A stretch of DNA of 64,000 bases from Candidatus Poribacteria bacterium WGA-3G (GTDB lineage Bacteria > Poribacteria > WGA-4E > WGA-3G): the NCBI GenBank assembly GCA_000406005.1, contig ASZN01000014.1, positions 11,309 to 75,308 on the forward strand, in the 5' to 3' direction. Under the pieces are notes generated by a model. The model had not been told where the DNA came from, did not search any database, and worked only from the letters and a program-made list of their open reading frames with translations. A program made the position numbers and the translations under genes. This document shows positions 9,612 through 28,740 of the stretch, piece by piece (position 1 is the first letter of the stretch; each line of letters starts with the position of its first letter).

Positions 9612-10727
9612 TTATACCTCAACTTGTCGAAGATCTGCTTGGTCAAGTGTATTTGTACCTAAACCGAGACTGCTTGCTGTATTGATATGGTTGGCGAATT
9701 TGGATACAGAATCTAAATCCATCTCTTCACGTTTTTGGTTGACCGTCTGGAGTACCAACACATCAAGAATAACGGGGTCAGCACTGATAAAGAGACTCCC
9801 GTATTGCCACGTGCTTTCGGCGTGATATGTCGGTCCTCTATCGAACGAAGCGAGCAATCCATCAACAATATTAAGGGTCAACTTGTCTTTCAGCACCTTA
9901 TGCTCCAAAATCTCACTGATAGCCGGATTGCAATAAATCGGCTTTCCGTGAAACCGACGTGTATTATCGACACTCCCGAACGCGAGATTCTTTAAGCATC
10001 CGCTCACGCCTGCCATGGCGTGGTGCTTCAAGACGGGAACGTTGATGATTACATCGACCTGCTCGGTGACGATTCGGGAGTAACGCGAACGGATACTTTC
10101 GTTCTCACGGCGTGCAAGACTATCCTTCTCGCTCTCATAGTAGACCTCATCGTCATACCCAATTCCGTCCGTATCGGAGGCGAAGGTTTGCACATCGCTC
10201 TCATCTCGCTTGATGGGGTAACCGGCATTTAGGAGGTGCTCCTCAAACCGGTCCCAGATAATAATCTGTTTCCGAAGCACCCCGGCACCGTATAACCCGT
10301 CAACAATTTTATCGACGATGATAGAATGCGTGCTAAGTTCTGGTCCCGCGAGTGGATTAATTTTTATGCCGACAACATCATCGGGTAGCACAATATCTCG
10401 CCACGCCTCTTTCGCGGAGGAACGGCCCGTCAACTTCATCATCGCCTGATCCATCAGTTCACTCACAGCATCTTCATTGAGCTGATCGTTTTCCCACACC
10501 TCTTTACCGATAGCCTCAACGACAGGTGTAAGAGATGCTGCCCCTGTCGTCTCAGGTTGTAATTGCCCGCTACTTAACTGTGCGAACGCCGGGAGCGTGC
10601 TAAGCGCACCACCGGAATATGCGGCAAGTCGGGTTAAGAACTGCCGTCGATTGAGCGATCTTTTGGAATCGGTCGCTTCTTCGCTGTCAGCGATGATATT
10701 TGCTATAACTGTGTCGTGAGGTTTCAT
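9612..10727 (-). CDS. Tat-signal DUF362-like protein
   Basis: Twin-arginine signal NRRQFLTRLAAYSGGALSTLPAFA. VGIKINPL-type core typical of DUF362. The ATG overlaps the upstream TGA stop (TGATGA). Confidence 0.65.
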   Translation of the reverse strand: MKPHDTVIANIIADSEEATDSKRSLNRRQFLTRLAAYSGGALSTLPAFAQLSSGQLQPETTGAASLTPVVEAIGKEVWENDQLNEDAVSELMDQAMMKLTGRSSAKEAWRDIVLPDDVVGIKINPLAGPELSTHSIIVDKIVDGLYGAGVLRKQIIIWDRFEEHLLNAGYPIKRDESDVQTFASDTDGIGYDDEVYYESEKDSLARRENESIRSRYSRIVTEQVDVIINVPVLKHHAMAGVSGCLKNLAFGSVDNTRRFHGKPIYCNPAISEILEHKVLKDKLTLNIVDGLLASFDRGPTYHAESTWQYGSLFISADPVILDVLVLQTVNQKREEMDLDSVSKFANHINTASSLGLGTNTLDQADLRQVEV

Positions 10728-11821
10728 CAAAGTTTACCTAATTCTGTGAGGATTTGCGCTGTTGGTACACGCGCAGCCTTGGTATTCAAAGATTTCCAAG
10801 CGATCGTTCCATCCTTGCGGACGATATAGGCGGCAGGACGTGCTATCCGATTGTTGCCAGGATCGACGACGTTGTAGACAGTGATCGCCTCTTTGTCGTT
10901 ATCCGCCAGGACTGGAAATTTGAGCCCATGGTTTTGAACCGTCTGTTTGGTGTCGCCTTCGTTATCGGAACTGATCGCAATGAGTTCCGCGCCTGCAGCT
11001 TGAATCTTCGCATAGTTCTGTTGCAACTCACCGAGTTGCGTTCTGCAGAAGGGTCACCAGCCGCCGCGGTAAAAAATAAGGACAACGTTTTTATCAGCGA
11101 TATAATCATCAAGGGCGTGCGCTTTACCGGTGCTGTCTGGTAAGACAAAGTCGGGGGCTTGGCTTTCAATACGCAAGCCTTGACCGGGAGGCAGCTCCTC
11201 CGCTTCTGGCACTGGTATGAGTTCGACCGTCAGTTCCAGCGTTTCATCCGCTGGTATCGGATCGACTGCTACCTCTTTGTCTTCGTAACCGGCGTGAGCG
11301 ATCATCAAAGCCATAGATTGCTGCACGGGGAGATTTTCAAAGGTGAAAACGCCTGCTGCTGTTGTTAACGTTTCGTAGATATTCCCTGTGTTATCCGTGA
11401 GTTGGAGACTGACACCGCCAAGCACTTCACCCGTCGTTTCGTTCGTTAAAACGCCGTATAAATGCGAGACTGGCGTTTTCAATGCGACGAGCGTTACCTT
11501 GTCAAGCGATACAACCTCTTCAGCGATGACTGTGACGGCTATCTCTTCCGTTTCATAGCCTTTCGCCGATATCTGGAGCGTATAGCTTCCAGCCTCAATC
11601 TCGCCAATTTCATAACTCGCCTGCGTCTCTATTTGCTTCACAAGTTGTCCATCTTTTAGTAAGCGTACCTGAATCCGTACGCCGTCAATTGATTGGACAT
11701 CGCCACGCAAAGTACCCGTTGTATCGGTTTCCACTGTCTCCTCAACCGGATTTTCAGTTTCACAGCCGAATCCTGCGAACAGTAGTAGCGCAAGCGCGAG
11801 GGGTGCCAGTATGTGTTTCAT
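10727..11821 (-). CDS. lipoprotein selenoprotein: CarboxypepD_reg-like repeats plus a peroxiredoxin-like (AhpC/TSA, Prx-like) domain with UxxC
   Basis: Track ORFs 11054..11821 and 10727..11026 are in the same frame, joined by TGA at 11054-11056. The read-through gives APDFVLPDSTGKAHALDDYIADKNVVLIFYRGGW-U-PFCRTQLGELQQNYAKIQAAGAELIAISSD, which is the FYRGxWCPxC redox motif with Sec at the first Cys. Lipobox FAGFG-C at the N-terminus. Confidence 0.75.
11016..11050 (-). promoter_or_regulatory. bacterial SECIS-like stem-loop
   Basis: The mRNA reads UGA CCC UUCUG cagaac GCAACUC GGU GAGUUGC aa CAGAA. It has a 7-bp upper stem, a GGU apical loop 22-24 nt after the UGA, and a 5-bp lower stem. Confidence 0.5.
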
Positions 11822-25260: not shown

Positions 25261-26547
25261 ATGGCAAAGGCAGATTCACAGCAAACAATTCAAGACGAGA
25301 TCACAATGACTGGGACGGGGTTAATGTTAGGACAACCTGTGACATTAACCTTGAAACCGGCACCTGAAGATTCGGGGATCGTCTTTCGACGTGTAGATAT
25401 AGATGGCATTCCCGAAGTGAAAGTCTCCCAAGAGAGTTGGGCAGACATTTTACCACGATGTACCAGTTTACGTAGTGGCGACACAACGGTTAGTAGCGTT
25501 GAACATATCCTTTCCGCTTTAGGTGGTCTCGGTGTCGATAACGCCATAGTGGAATTAGATGCTCCAGAACCGCCTGGACTTGATGGGAGTGCGCTACCGT
25601 ATGTCGAAAATATTCAAACGGTAGGTCTTGTCTCACAAGACGCACCGCGGCACGTCATTGAAGTAAAGGAACCGTTTTCACTCTCATCAGGAGACAGACA
25701 ACTTGTTCTATTACCGGCTGATGCTTTAGAGGTGACGTTCGTTTACGCGCATCCACAAACGACACCGCAAATAGTGACGTTCGAGATAACACCGGAATTG
25801 TATGCCAGCGACATCGCGCCAGCGCGGAGTTTCTGTTTCGAGAATGAGATCGAAGCGCTGAAGGCGCTCGGTATCGGGAAAGGCGCGAATTACGATAACG
25901 TCCTTGTTATTGATACGGCAGGTGAACCGAGCACGCCGCTCCGATTTGATGATGAATTTGCGCGACACAAAATCTTGGATCTGATTGGTGATCTCTATTT
26001 GGCTGGACATCTACCGAGGGCGCATGTTATTGCCATGCGGACGGGACATACGTTCCACGCCGAGTTTGTGCAAGCACTCGCTGAAGCGGGACACCTCGAA
26101 CGGGCACCTGTCCAAGAACCTGTTGAGGTAATGGACATCTATGAAGTGTTACCGCACCGGCATCCGATGTGCATGGTAGATAGAGTCATTGAATATGAGA
26201 GTAAAAAGCGAGCCGTTGGTATCAAGAATGTGACCTACAACGAACCCATTTTTGAGGGACATTTTCCGACGCGTCCAGTCATGCCGGGTGTGCTACAGAT
26301 TGAAGCGTTAGCACAACTTGCCGCTTGGCTTGTGCTTCGGGATATTGGTAAAGAGGGAGAACTCGGTTATTTTCGCTCCATAAGCAAAGCGACTTTCCGA
26401 CGCGCCGTCATCCCTGGGGATCAACTTCGGTTGGAAATAGAGGTTGCACAACTGCGGAGTAGACTTGCACGTATTGAAGGCCGTGTTTATGTTGGAAACG
26501 AACTCGCCACAGAAGCGGAACTGTCAATCGTATTGGCATCTGTTTAA
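25261..26547 (+). CDS. lpxC-fabZ: bifunctional UDP-3-O-acyl-GlcNAc deacetylase / 3-hydroxyacyl-ACP dehydratase (LpxC-FabZ fusion)
   Basis: The LpxC part contains SVEHILSAL.G.GVDN and HKILDLIGDLYL. The FabZ hot-dog part contains LPHRHPMCMVDRV...FEGHFP..PVMPGVL. Confidence 0.9.
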   Translation: MAKADSQQTIQDEITMTGTGLMLGQPVTLTLKPAPEDSGIVFRRVDIDGIPEVKVSQESWADILPRCTSLRSGDTTVSSVEHILSALGGLGVDNAIVELDAPEPPGLDGSALPYVENIQTVGLVSQDAPRHVIEVKEPFSLSSGDRQLVLLPADALEVTFVYAHPQTTPQIVTFEITPELYASDIAPARSFCFENEIEALKALGIGKGANYDNVLVIDTAGEPSTPLRFDDEFARHKILDLIGDLYLAGHLPRAHVIAMRTGHTFHAEFVQALAEAGHLERAPVQEPVEVMDIYEVLPHRHPMCMVDRVIEYESKKRAVGIKNVTYNEPIFEGHFPTRPVMPGVLQIEALAQLAAWLVLRDIGKEGELGYFRSISKATFRRAVIPGDQLRLEIEVAQLRSRLARIEGRVYVGNELATEAELSIVLASV

Positions 26548-27484: not shown

Positions 27485-28303
27485 ATGCGGAGTGAAGCGG
27501 TGGAAAAATTAGGGATTATTGCAGGTGCAGGTAAGCTACCGGTGTTATTGGCACGTGCCGCTGTCAACCATGATCGGGAACCCGTTGTCATCCAAATTAC
27601 AAAGTCTGACGCAGAACGCTTTGCCGGCATCGCACACGAAATCCATACTTATGGCGTTGGACAGATTCAAAAGATCGCTCGGACCCTTCTCAATTCTGGT
27701 GTAAAAGAGGTCGTGATTATCGGTAAAGTCGAAAAGAATATATTGCTTCGTCCCTTCCAAATTGATACGACGACCCTTAAAATTTTAGTTCAGAACCGCC
27801 GCGAAAAACCTGCCACAATTGTCAACGCAGCCCTCAACTCCCTCGAATCCACTGGACTCACTATCCTCCCGCAAGATCGGTATCTCGAGGACCTGCTTCC
27901 GCATCCGGGTGTTTTAACAAAGCGACGACCCACCGAAAGTCAATGGAAAGACATTGAACTCGGTATCACGACTGCGCGCCAAATCGCGGATATGGATATT
28001 GGACAGACTGTTGTCGTCAAAAATCAGATTGTACTTGCGATTGAAGCGATTGATGGGACAGATGCGACGATTAAGAGGGGTGGCAACCTTGGAAGGAAAG
28101 GGTCTGTTGTCGCGAAAGCCGCCGCCGCGAATCACGACTTTCGGATTGATGTGCCGACGGTAGGGCAACAGACGCTATCGGCGTTGCATCAAGTTAAAGC
28201 GGGTGTGTTGGCAGTAGAAGCACGTCGCACCTTCGTTATGGATCCGGAAATGCTTATCCAGCAGGCAGACCGATGGAAGATTGCTATTGTTGCTGTCGAG
28301 TAG
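27485..28303 (+). CDS. lpxI: UDP-2,3-diacylglucosamine diphosphatase LpxI (DUF1009)
   Basis: Contains LGIIAGAGKLP, DIGQTVVV, EAIDGTDATIKRG and DVPTVG. ATG at 27485; the track's start at 27449 is a TTG. Confidence 0.8.
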   Translation: MRSEAVEKLGIIAGAGKLPVLLARAAVNHDREPVVIQITKSDAERFAGIAHEIHTYGVGQIQKIARTLLNSGVKEVVIIGKVEKNILLRPFQIDTTTLKILVQNRREKPATIVNAALNSLESTGLTILPQDRYLEDLLPHPGVLTKRRPTESQWKDIELGITTARQIADMDIGQTVVVKNQIVLAIEAIDGTDATIKRGGNLGRKGSVVAKAAAANHDFRIDVPTVGQQTLSALHQVKAGVLAVEARRTFVMDPEMLIQQADRWKIAIVAVE

Positions 28304-28325: not shown

Positions 28326-28361
28326 GGAAAAAAGCGGAGACGATACAGTGATAGCCTCCGC
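28326..28361 (-). terminator. rho-independent terminator of the SelW-like gene
   Basis: On the minus strand, GCGGAG-(16 nt)-CTCCGC is followed by UUUUUU, about 20 nt after the TAG. Confidence 0.55.
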
Positions 28362-28381
28362 CATCTCAAAGTTTTTCCAAA

Positions 28382-28612
28382 CTATGCTGCGTCTATTGCA
28401 GCTGCAATCTGCTCTGTCGTTGGAAACTGCCGAGTCTCTAACTTCGAGTAGAGCAACGTTCCGTTTAACGAGACTTCAAAAGCCCCACCACTGCCCGGAA
28501 CGAGATCAACTTGCTTAACTTCTGCACCATACTTCTCTTTTAAGGCATCTGCCAAACTGGCTGCCCGTGGTTGGTAGTTTCAAGAGGTGCAATATTCAAT
28601 TTTCACTTCCAT
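28382..28612 (-). CDS. SelW/Rdx-family selenoprotein (CxxU), 76 codons, not in the ORF track
   Basis: Manual translation gives MEVKIEYCTS-U-NYQPRAASLADALKEKYGAEVKQVDLVPGSGGAFEVSLNGTLLYSKLETRQFPTTEQIAAAIDAA. AGGAGG lies 9 nt upstream of the ATG (28612). In-frame TGA at 28580-28582 and TAG stop at 28382-28384. The IEYC..U...RA..L...G.FEV..NG.L.YSK pattern matches Rdx proteins. Confidence 0.75.
28544..28565 (-). promoter_or_regulatory. bacterial SECIS-like stem-loop
   Basis: The mRNA reads GGCA GCCA GUU UGGC aga UGCC, starting 15 nt after the UGA. The GUU apical loop lies 23-25 nt after the UGA. Confidence 0.5.
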
Positions 28613-28740
28613 GGGATGTTATCCTCCTGATTCGAGTTATGAGTAAATTCAACGCTTCACTACAAAATTCTACCATTAATACTACGTAATTGCAAGTTTT
28701 TTCGCGCCGTTATAAAAAATATGTGGACATCGCGAAGGAT

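What the first reader, a model, noticed from the sequence alone, without database searches (positions are those of the whole stretch)
28382..28612. Unannotated SelW/Rdx-like selenoprotein gene (CxxU) hidden in an apparent intergenic gap
Seen: ATG 28612 lies behind AGGAGG. The sequence MEVKIEYCTS-UGA-NYQPRAASL...GGAFEVSLNGTLLYSKLETRQFPT runs to a TAG at 28382-84. A SECIS-like hairpin (GGCAGCCA-GUU-UGGCagaUGCC) starts 15 nt after the UGA. A clean terminator (hairpin plus U6) follows the TAG. No ORF of 60 aa or more is reported here because the UGA splits the gene. Established: Rdx-family proteins (SelW, SelT, SelH) carry CxxU or CxxC at this position after an IEYC-type beta-strand.
Basis: partly seen in the sequence, partly recalled or inferred. 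Interest (0 to 1): 0.6.

Follow-up and report, generated by a model that had tools for sequence, protein, structure and literature searches.

The report
SelW-like selenoprotein gene, Poribacteria
This is a real but ordinary 76-residue redox-protein gene of a sponge-symbiont bacterium (Candidatus Poribacteria) whose TGA "stop" at codon 11 almost certainly encodes selenocysteine, and the family has been known in marine bacteria since 2005.

Summary
Window 28612..28382 (minus strand) holds a 76-codon gene. It has a Shine-Dalgarno site, an ATG, a C8-T-S-U11 motif with TGA at 28582-28580, a hairpin just downstream of the TGA, a TAG stop and an intrinsic terminator.

The product matches Pfam Rdx over its full length (E 1.8e-25). 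Its model folds like the crystal structures of bacterial SelW-related proteins (TM at least 0.9).

The genome has tRNA-Sec, selB and selD. selA is missing only from this 86%-complete assembly. TGA is otherwise a normal stop here.

The gene was found in 168 of 176 Poribacteria genomes, and all 150 listed matches have exactly one TGA. In all 60 orthologues I extracted it falls at codon 11. Relatives at 26 loci outside Poribacteria, spanning several other phyla, also have U there.

The hairpin keeps the same register across phyla. It has compensatory base changes and invariant synonymous sites, as expected of a bacterial SECIS.

SelW-like (CxxU) is the most abundant prokaryotic selenoprotein family in marine metagenomes, so this is not new. 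The named public models examined are truncated 57-58-residue fragments, and the 76-residue entries inspected read the codon as Trp.

This scan has already found the same gene in three other Poribacteria genomes. Selenium incorporation itself is not shown.

The parts
28667..28695 (-). Promoter-like site: TTGCAA, 17-nt spacer, TG-extended TAGAAT, about 55 nt upstream of the ATG
   Evidence: Consensus scan, 9 of 12 matches with TG before the -10 hexamer. This is a pattern match only and has not been shown to function.
28623..28628 (-). Shine-Dalgarno sequence AGGAGG, 10 nt before the ATG
   Evidence: Read directly from the sequence. Most of the 30 orthologues whose upstream sequence was printed have a GGAGG-type site at the same spacing; a few show only GGAG or GAGG.
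28382..28612 (-). Full coding sequence of the SelW-like (Rdx family) selenoprotein: 76 codons plus TAG
   Evidence: Translation. Pfam Rdx E 1.8e-25 over residues 2-74. NCBIfam TIGR02174 at 80 bits and NF041051 at 90.4 bits. AF2 model pLDDT 91.3. Foldseek TM at least 0.9 to 2fa8, 2obk and 2ojl.
28589..28591 (-). Cys8 codon (TGC), the resolving cysteine of the CxxU motif
   Evidence: TGC or TGT in 60 of 60 orthologues. Invariant in the cross-phylum alignment A2.
28580..28582 (-). In-frame TGA at codon 11, read as selenocysteine
   Evidence: TGA in 60 of 60 extracted orthologues. U in 80 of 80 loci, including 26 outside Poribacteria. All 150 listed phylum matches have '1 TGA'. It aligns with the second Cys of the CxxC motif in PDB 2fa8 and 2ojl.
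28544..28565 (-). SECIS hairpin. The conserved apical stem is 28561-28558 paired with 28554-28551, with the G-U-U loop at 28557-28555. In this genus there is also a possible lower stem, GGCA/UGCC, with an AGA bulge.
   Evidence: The apical stem is kept in all 39 sequences of A3. The helix is 87% paired against 18-55% in the slid controls. Four pairs have changes on both sides. The covariation score is 0.229 against 0.118, reached by 0 of 500 shuffles. Third-position entropy is 0 at codons 18-20. The loop lies 22 nt after the UGA. The lower stem is weakly supported: among in-genus sequences I read one G-U variant and one mismatch.
28382..28555 (-). Spurious 57-aa TTG ORF (Leu20 read as Met). 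This is the truncated model found in public annotations.
   Evidence: ORF list. NCBI and JGI entries such as P0017, P0029 and P0024 begin MADALK.../LADALK.... The TTG lies inside the SECIS hairpin, and I see no Shine-Dalgarno site before it.
28328..28362 (-). Intrinsic terminator: 9-bp stem GGCGGAGGC/GUCUCCGCU, 12-nt loop, U6
   Evidence: RNA fold -19.1 kcal/mol, z -2.48. It lies between this gene and the convergent lpxI, which ends at 28303.

Best explanation
This is a single, independently transcribed gene for a cytoplasmic SelW-like (Rdx family) selenoprotein of a Candidatus Poribacteria symbiont.

Translation starts at AUG 28612. When the ribosome reaches UGA 28582-28580, SelB-GTP carrying Sec-tRNA(Sec) is tethered by the small mRNA hairpin whose G-U-U apical loop lies 22 nt downstream. 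Selenocysteine is inserted instead of translation ending, and translation continues to UAG 28384-28382.

The 76-residue product has a thioredoxin-like fold, with the C8-T-S-U11 motif on the loop between strand 1 and helix 1. It most likely acts as a thiol/selenol oxidoreductase. In that scheme Sec11 attacks an oxidised substrate and forms a selenenylsulfide with Cys8. The bond would then be reduced by a cellular thiol system; which one is not known.

Shown here: the gene, its family, its fold, the conserved UGA, the conserved covarying hairpin, and the Sec machinery.

Inferred: actual Sec insertion, the redox chemistry and the substrate.
For: - Family and fold: Pfam Rdx E 1.8e-25 over the full length, TIGR02174 at 80 bits, NF041051 at 90.4 bits against a cut-off of 88. 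AF2 pLDDT is 91.3, with strand 2-8, C8..U11 on the following loop and a helix at 14-31. Foldseek TM is at least 0.9 at about 1 A to bacterial SelW-related crystal structures, and TMq 0.71 to mouse SelW.
- Cys homologues: 2fa8 and 2ojl have Cys aligned to the TGA position.
- Conservation of the UGA: 61 of 61 genomes of the order have exactly one TGA. 168 of 176 genomes of the phylum have the gene, and all 150 listed matches have one TGA. It is at codon 11 in 60 of 60. 26 of 26 homologous loci outside Poribacteria also have U.
- Downstream frame is coding: 0 stops against 264 and 203 in the other frames. Entropy is 1.21 at position 3 and 0.34 at position 2.
- SECIS: the same register across phyla, compensatory changes and invariant synonymous sites. 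The other in-frame UGAs of this genome, in selD and the Prx-like gene, are followed by similar small G/U loops 16-21 nt downstream.
- Machinery: tRNA-Sec, selB and selD. selA is present in relatives.
- Genetic code: TGA ends 479 of 2,338 long frames in this genome, so the code is standard.
- Literature: SelW-like CxxU is the most abundant prokaryotic selenoprotein family in marine metagenomes (PMC1088965, PMC2398784).
Against: - There is no direct evidence of selenium incorporation or of expression.
- selA was not found in this assembly, although the assembly is only 85.6% complete.
- The window's hairpin alone is not more stable than shuffled sequence (z +0.56).
- In this genus the fifth pair of the cross-phylum stem is an A-A mismatch.
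- The hairpin overlaps the highly conserved AASLA peptide motif, so RNA and protein constraints are partly confounded.
- The biochemical function of bacterial SelW-like proteins is unknown (PMC1088965 calls it unclear), and the gene neighbourhood (lpx genes, a TonB_C protein) gives no redox clue.
Confidence: 0.93

Rival explanations
1. The UGA is a true stop. The real gene would then be the 57-residue ORF starting at TTG 28555, as in public annotations, and the upstream 10 codons would be a leader peptide or non-coding.
For: This model exists in NCBI and JGI records of orthologues. Table 11 lists it.
Against: - The 10 upstream codons are conserved as protein and carry the family's defining CxxU/CxxC motif and strand 1.
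- The Pfam match runs from residue 2.
- The strong Shine-Dalgarno site precedes the ATG, not the TTG.
- The TTG lies inside the hairpin.
- A 57-residue product would lack strand 1 and the active site of the fold.
Confidence: 0.03
2. The UGA is decoded as tryptophan, or as another standard residue such as Cys by near-cognate readthrough, rather than as selenocysteine.
For: The six 76- to 104-residue database entries I inspected carry W at this position.
Against: - TGA ends 479 of 2,338 long frames in this genome, so the code is standard.
- The W entries come from short contigs of about 500-1,700 bases. My inference is that a gene caller chose a TGA=Trp table for them.
- Trp at the second position of a CxxC-type redox motif has no precedent that I know of in this family; the solved homologues have Cys there.
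- A dedicated tRNA-Sec, selB and selD, plus a conserved downstream hairpin, are all present.
- Occasional Cys misinsertion under selenium limitation cannot be excluded with these tools.
Confidence: 0.03
3. This is a pseudogene or an assembly error: a CxxC gene recently broken by a TGC-to-TGA mutation or a sequencing mistake.
For: This is a single draft MAG, 85.6% complete, in 286 contigs.
Against: The same TGA is present in independent assemblies of 150 or more species, including closed chromosomes, and in other phyla. The downstream frame is intact and shows purifying selection.
Confidence: 0.01

Closest known systems
Bacterial SelW-like selenoproteins (CxxU; Pfam Rdx PF10262, formerly PF05169; NCBIfam TIGR02174), as catalogued in the Sargasso Sea and GOS selenoproteomes (PMC1088965, PMC2398784)
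   Same: About the size of the Pfam domain (74 positions). CxxU motif directly after strand 1. Bacterial-type SECIS immediately downstream of the UGA, with a small apical loop containing G. Marine habitat. Twenty-six homologous loci outside Poribacteria, spanning several other phyla, also carry U and the same hairpin register.
   Different: Nothing essential differs. In this Poribacteria genus the hairpin has a 4-bp apical stem and then an A-A mismatch, instead of the 6-7 bp continuous stem seen in other phyla. A search of the held paper library for Poribacteria together with selenoprotein found one paper, which is about hydrogenases.
Cys-form bacterial Rdx proteins with solved structures (PDB 2fa8 Agrobacterium Atu0228, 2obk, 2ojl, 2oka, 2p0g, 3dex)
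   Same: Same fold (TM at least 0.9, rmsd about 1 A). The redox motif is at the same place (C-T-Q-C aligned with C-T-S-U).
   Different: They have Cys where this protein has Sec. They are about 25-30 residues longer (103-108 aa). Sequence identity is about 28-35%.
Mammalian selenoprotein W (mouse SelW, PDB 2npb) and MIEN1 (2ljk)
   Same: Rdx-family thioredoxin-like fold with CxxU (SelW) at the junction of strand 1 and helix 1. TMq is 0.71 and 0.66.
   Different: Only 24-33% identity in the structural alignment. By established knowledge, eukaryotic SelW uses a 3'-UTR SECIS and SBP2/eEFSec. Here the signal is a coding-region hairpin read by SelB, and no Rfam family, including eukaryotic SECIS models, matched the window at gathering score.
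NCBIfam NF041051 SelTWH_Campy, 'SelT/SelW/SelH family (seleno)protein' equivalog
   Same: Scores 90.4 bits over positions 1-69 of 70, just above the 88-bit cut-off.
   Different: The match is marginal. The model's name suggests it was built on Campylobacter-type sequences (my reading of the name). I treat it as showing a close subfamily, not strict equivalence.

Membership tests
Rdx / SelW-like family (PF10262, TIGR02174) | Profile match above the curated cut-off over the whole domain | tested here: met
   PF10262 scores 89.4 bits against a cut-off of 22.6, covering residues 2-74 of 76. TIGR02174 scores 80.2 against 34.2.
Rdx / SelW-like family (PF10262, TIGR02174) | CxxC or CxxU redox motif directly after the first beta strand | tested here: met
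   C8-T-S-U11. The AF2 model has a strand at 2-8 and a helix at 14-31. C8 and position 11 are invariant in alignment A2.
Rdx / SelW-like family (PF10262, TIGR02174) | Thioredoxin-like beta-alpha-beta-beta-beta-alpha fold | tested here: met
   pLDDT 91.3, with elements E2-8, H14-31, E34-40, E45-49, E52-56 and H66-75. TM at least 0.9 to 2fa8, 2obk and 2ojl. Thioredoxins follow at TMq about 0.6.
Rdx / SelW-like family (PF10262, TIGR02174) | Thiol/selenol oxidoreductase activity | not testable with these tools
   This needs purified protein. The function of the bacterial family is described as unclear in PMC1088965.
Bacterial selenoprotein gene (SelB-dependent UGA recoding) | In-frame UGA conserved among orthologues, aligned with Cys in homologues | tested here: met
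   TGA in 60 of 60 orthologues at codon 11. U in 80 of 80 loci. Cys at the aligned position in PDB homologues.
Bacterial selenoprotein gene (SelB-dependent UGA recoding) | SECIS hairpin immediately downstream of the UGA, with a small apical loop containing G (PMC1088965). From my memory of bSECISearch: 16-37 nt from the UGA to the loop. | tested here: met
   The G-U-U loop lies 22 nt after the UGA. The stem is kept in 39 of 39 sequences, with compensatory changes at 4 pairs, and 0 of 500 shuffles reach the covariation score. Synonymous sites are invariant. Single-sequence stability is not significant.
Bacterial selenoprotein gene (SelB-dependent UGA recoding) | tRNA-Sec, SelB and SelD encoded in the genome | tested here: met
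   tRNA-Sec at 76.4 bits with anticodon UCA. selB at 367.7 bits, adjacent to it. selD at 360.9 bits.
Bacterial selenoprotein gene (SelB-dependent UGA recoding) | SelA (Sec synthase) encoded in the genome | tested here: inconclusive
   Not found in this 85.6%-complete assembly. Present at about 600 bits in 19 of 20 relatives and in 16 of 16 high-quality genomes. An assembly gap is the most likely explanation.
Bacterial selenoprotein gene (SelB-dependent UGA recoding) | Selenium actually incorporated at the UGA | not testable with these tools
   This needs 75Se labelling or mass spectrometry.
Eukaryotic selenoprotein W proper | Close relationship to animal SelW, and a eukaryotic-type SECIS | tested here: not met
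   24% identity and TMq 0.71 to mouse SelW, well below the bacterial relatives. No Rfam family, including eukaryotic SECIS models, matched the window at gathering score. It works like SelW but is not an orthologue of the animal gene.

The most novel reading that the evidence does not exclude
The SECIS hairpin and helix 1 of the protein are one dual-coding unit that has stayed in the same register across several bacterial phyla. On this reading, the near-universal N-Y-Q-P-R-A-A-S-L-A peptide after the Sec is shaped by the RNA signal as much as by the protein. For example, residues 18 (Ala/Val) and 21 (Ala/Thr) co-vary only in the combinations that keep base pair 23-31 (GCC/GCG, GUC/ACG, GUC/GCG, and never GCC/ACG). 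The Sec form is also nearly fixed throughout Poribacteria (168 of 176 genomes, and no Cys form among the 150 listed matches). That would point to a lineage-wide dependence on selenium in these sponge symbionts.
Probability: 0.4. Interest if true: 0.35.

Novelty: new member of a known kind. Interest (0 to 1): 0.15.

Why it matters
The main value is to annotation. The named public records examined truncate this gene to a 57-58-residue fragment with no active site, and the full-length entries inspected read the codon as Trp. Counts of selenoproteins in Poribacteria are therefore likely to be too low.

Earlier notes of this scan report a Prx-like selenoprotein and selenoprotein N homologues in the same genome. 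With selD, which is itself a selenoprotein here, this suggests that these sponge symbionts have a sizeable selenoproteome.

The finding does not open a new question. The family, the recoding mechanism and the typical mis-annotation have all been described since 2005.

Tried and rejected
- An Rfam scan of the whole window at gathering threshold found nothing. As far as I know, Rfam holds no general bacterial SECIS family, so this says nothing either way.
- ARAGORN found no tRNA in the window. The tRNA-Sec is on another contig.
- Folding the window's hairpin region alone gave z +0.56, so thermodynamics gives no support. I relied on comparison across species instead.
- The consensus terminator scan found 0 sites, probably because the loop is 12 nt. 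Direct folding recovered the terminator.
- selA searches with TIGR00474 and PF03841 in the window's own genome found only weak hits to frames of 379 and 388 aa. I take these to be other PLP-dependent enzymes, but I did not check.
- Upstream of selB there is a 262-aa ORF and part of another. From their sequences I read them as lepB and lepA, not selA, but I did not check this with a profile.
- The gene neighbourhood (lpxC-fabZ fusion, lpxA, lpxI, a TonB_C protein, an SDR, a sugar transferase) gave no functional link.
- The TGA=Trp code was considered and rejected on stop-codon usage.
- The genus-specific lower stem GGCA/UGCC was considered. It is only weakly supported: among in-genus sequences I read one wobble variant and one mismatch.

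Full report
**What is in the sequence**

On the minus strand, an ATG at 28612-28610 sits 10 nt behind AGGAGG (28628-28623). The TGA is codon 11, at 28582-28580. Under table 11 the only ORF here is a 57-residue TTG frame, 28382..28555.

A promoter-like TTGCAA-17-TG-TAGAAT lies at 28695-28667. After the stop there is a 9-bp hairpin followed by U6 at 28362-28328. It folds at -19.1 kcal/mol with z -2.48. The simple terminator scan missed it, probably because its loop is 12 nt.

The flanking genes are a convergent lpxC-fabZ / lpxA / lpxI run and a divergent TonB_C-domain gene. This looks like a stand-alone transcription unit. The arrangement is kept across the genus: lpxI is next door in 45 of 55 Poribacteria loci and TonB_C in 36 of 55.

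**Family and fold**

With C in place of U, the protein matches Pfam Rdx (PF10262) at E 1.8e-25 over residues 2-74. It also matches NCBIfam TIGR02174 'SelT/SelW/SelH family' at 80 bits against a cut-off of 34, and the equivalog NF041051 at 90.4 bits against a cut-off of 88. It is the only Rdx gene in the genome.

PDB holds Cys-form bacterial relatives such as 2fa8 and 2ojl, in which the second Cys of C-T-Q-C aligns with the U.

An AlphaFold2 model built from a 28-sequence alignment has mean pLDDT 91.3. It shows a strand at 2-8, C8-T-S-U11 on the following loop, a helix at 14-31, three more strands and a C-terminal helix. It superposes on 2fa8, 2obk and 2ojl at TM at least 0.9 and about 1 A. Mouse SelW (2npb) matches at TMq 0.71, and thioredoxins at about 0.6.

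**Is the UGA decoded as Sec?**

The genome is a Candidatus Poribacteria MAG, judged from the record titles of near-identical loci. It encodes the following:
- tRNA-Sec with anticodon UCA (76 bits), directly beside selB (368 bits).
- selD (361 bits), which carries its own in-frame TGA.

selA was not found. However, the assembly is 85.6% complete, and selA scores about 600 bits in 19 of 20 relatives, including 16 of 16 high-quality genomes. An assembly gap is the likely reason.

TGA ends 479 of 2,338 long frames in the genome, so it is an ordinary stop here and the organism does not use a TGA=Trp code.

**Comparative evidence**

- Every one of 61 genomes sampled from the order (four families, eight genera) has an orthologue with exactly one TGA.
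- Across the phylum, 168 of 176 genomes have the gene (130 of 133 high-quality ones). All 150 listed matches have one TGA.
- In the 60 orthologues I extracted, the TGA is always at codon 11 and Cys8 is always TGC or TGT.
- Downstream of the TGA, frame 0 has no stops, against 264 and 203 in the other two frames. Third positions vary far more than second positions (entropy 1.21 against 0.34).
- Homologues at 26 loci outside Poribacteria also have U at this position. They include Rossellomorea, Virgibacillus, Verrucomicrobiae, Gemmatimonadales, Thermoanaerobaculia, Chloroflexota, Calditrichota and Pirellulaceae.

**The SECIS**

In the window the hairpin is GGCA-GCCA-GUU-UGGC-AGA-UGCC (28565-28544), and its loop lies 22 nt after the UGA. 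Alone, it is no more stable than shuffled sequence (z +0.56). The case for it rests on comparison across species.

Within Poribacteria, codons 18-20 have zero third-position entropy. Ser is AGT in 60 of 60, Leu is TTG in 56 of 56, and the third base of codon 18 is C in 60 of 60. Neighbouring codons show roughly 1 to 1.9 bits.

The apical stem (columns 22-25 with 29-32, counted from the T of TGA) is kept in all 29 distinct sequences. Pair 23-31 switches between C-G, U-A and U-G with no mismatch.

Adding the other phyla shows the same register with a 6-7 bp stem and a G-N-N loop. On the combined 39-sequence alignment:
- The 7-bp helix is 87% paired, against 18-55% when the partners are slid.
- Four pairs have changes on both sides.
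- The covariation score is 0.229 against 0.118 in shuffles, and 0 of 500 shuffles reach it.
- RNAalifold independently predicts the inner five pairs.

In this genus the fifth pair is an A-A mismatch. A shifted lower stem, GGCA/UGCC, may replace it, but support for that is thin.

The two other in-frame UGAs I examined in this genome are followed by similar small G/U-containing loops. The Prx-like gene has GGU 21 nt downstream, and selD has a GGGU-containing loop about 16 nt downstream by my reading; the minimum-energy fold instead put a CCG loop there. Shared loop features are expected if one SelB reads them all.

**What public databases hold**

The named entries are 57-58-residue fragments that begin MADALK... 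or LADALK..., that is, at Leu20. These are NCBI 'SelT/SelW/SelH family protein' and 'selenoprotein', both from Candidatus Poribacteria bacterium, and JGI 'selenoprotein W-related protein'. The six full-length entries I inspected carry W at position 11 and come from short contigs. My inference is that a gene caller chose a TGA=Trp table for them. The family is therefore recognised, but the active-site half of the gene is missing from, or wrong in, the models examined.

**How it compares with what is known**

[quoted passage not shown] They were again the most abundant in the GOS survey, with 427 genes in 40 samples (PMC2398784). Their function is described there as unclear but probably redox.

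A search of the held paper library for Poribacteria together with selenoprotein found one paper, on [NiFeSe] hydrogenases.

This scan has already reported the same gene in three other Poribacteria genomes. It has also reported a Prx-like selenoprotein and selenoprotein N homologues in this genome. My tests were run independently and reach the same verdict.

**Verdict**

This is a genuine member of a long-known selenoprotein family in a lineage where it is nearly universal.

Not shown here: selenium incorporation, expression, and biochemical function.

The only mildly interesting extras are two. The SECIS register is conserved deeply across phyla, with RNA pairing visibly constraining which amino-acid pairs occur in helix 1. 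And the Sec form is nearly fixed across the phylum.

Noticed in passing
G000 contig 61, 123-1046 (locus L019): The genome's selD (selenophosphate synthetase) has an in-frame TGA near its N-terminus (...VKCAGU ASKL...). The Sec pathway enzyme is therefore itself a selenoprotein here. By my reading, the UGA is followed about 16 nt downstream by a small loop containing GGGU; the minimum-energy fold placed a CCG loop there instead.
   Followed up: partly
window 10727-11821 (minus strand): A Prx-like gene has an in-frame TGA in a G-G-W-U-P-F-C motif, followed by the hairpin GCAACUC-GGU-GAGUUGC with its loop 21 nt downstream. Here I used it only to compare SECIS features.
   Followed up: partly
window 28551-28561, and the orthologues in alignments A1 and A3: Amino-acid pairs in helix 1 appear to be constrained by RNA pairing. 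Residue 18 (Ala GCC or Val GUC) and residue 21 (Ala GCG/GCA or Thr ACG) occur only in combinations that keep base pair 23-31. The non-pairing combination GCC/ACG was never seen in 39 sequences.
   Followed up: partly
window 25261-26547 (plus strand): A 428-residue protein fuses LpxC (residues 7-274) with a FabA/FabZ-like dehydratase domain (297-419). It is followed by lpxA and lpxI. From memory, this bifunctional arrangement is known in some bacteria.
   Followed up: no
G000 contig 59, 32756-34786 (loci L001 and L011): selB is immediately followed by tRNA-Sec on the same strand. Upstream are a 262-aa ORF and part of another, which I read as lepB and lepA without a profile check; selA is not there. 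In closed genomes of relatives, selA lies about 100 kb from the Rdx gene (for example G002: 1.554 Mb against 1.659 Mb), so the Sec genes are dispersed.
   Followed up: partly
public protein entries P0002-P0012: The six full-length database copies of this protein that I inspected carry Trp at the Sec position. I infer that gene callers applied a TGA=Trp table to short contigs. If so, this is a systematic artefact that could mislead homology-based annotation of selenoproteins.
   Followed up: partly
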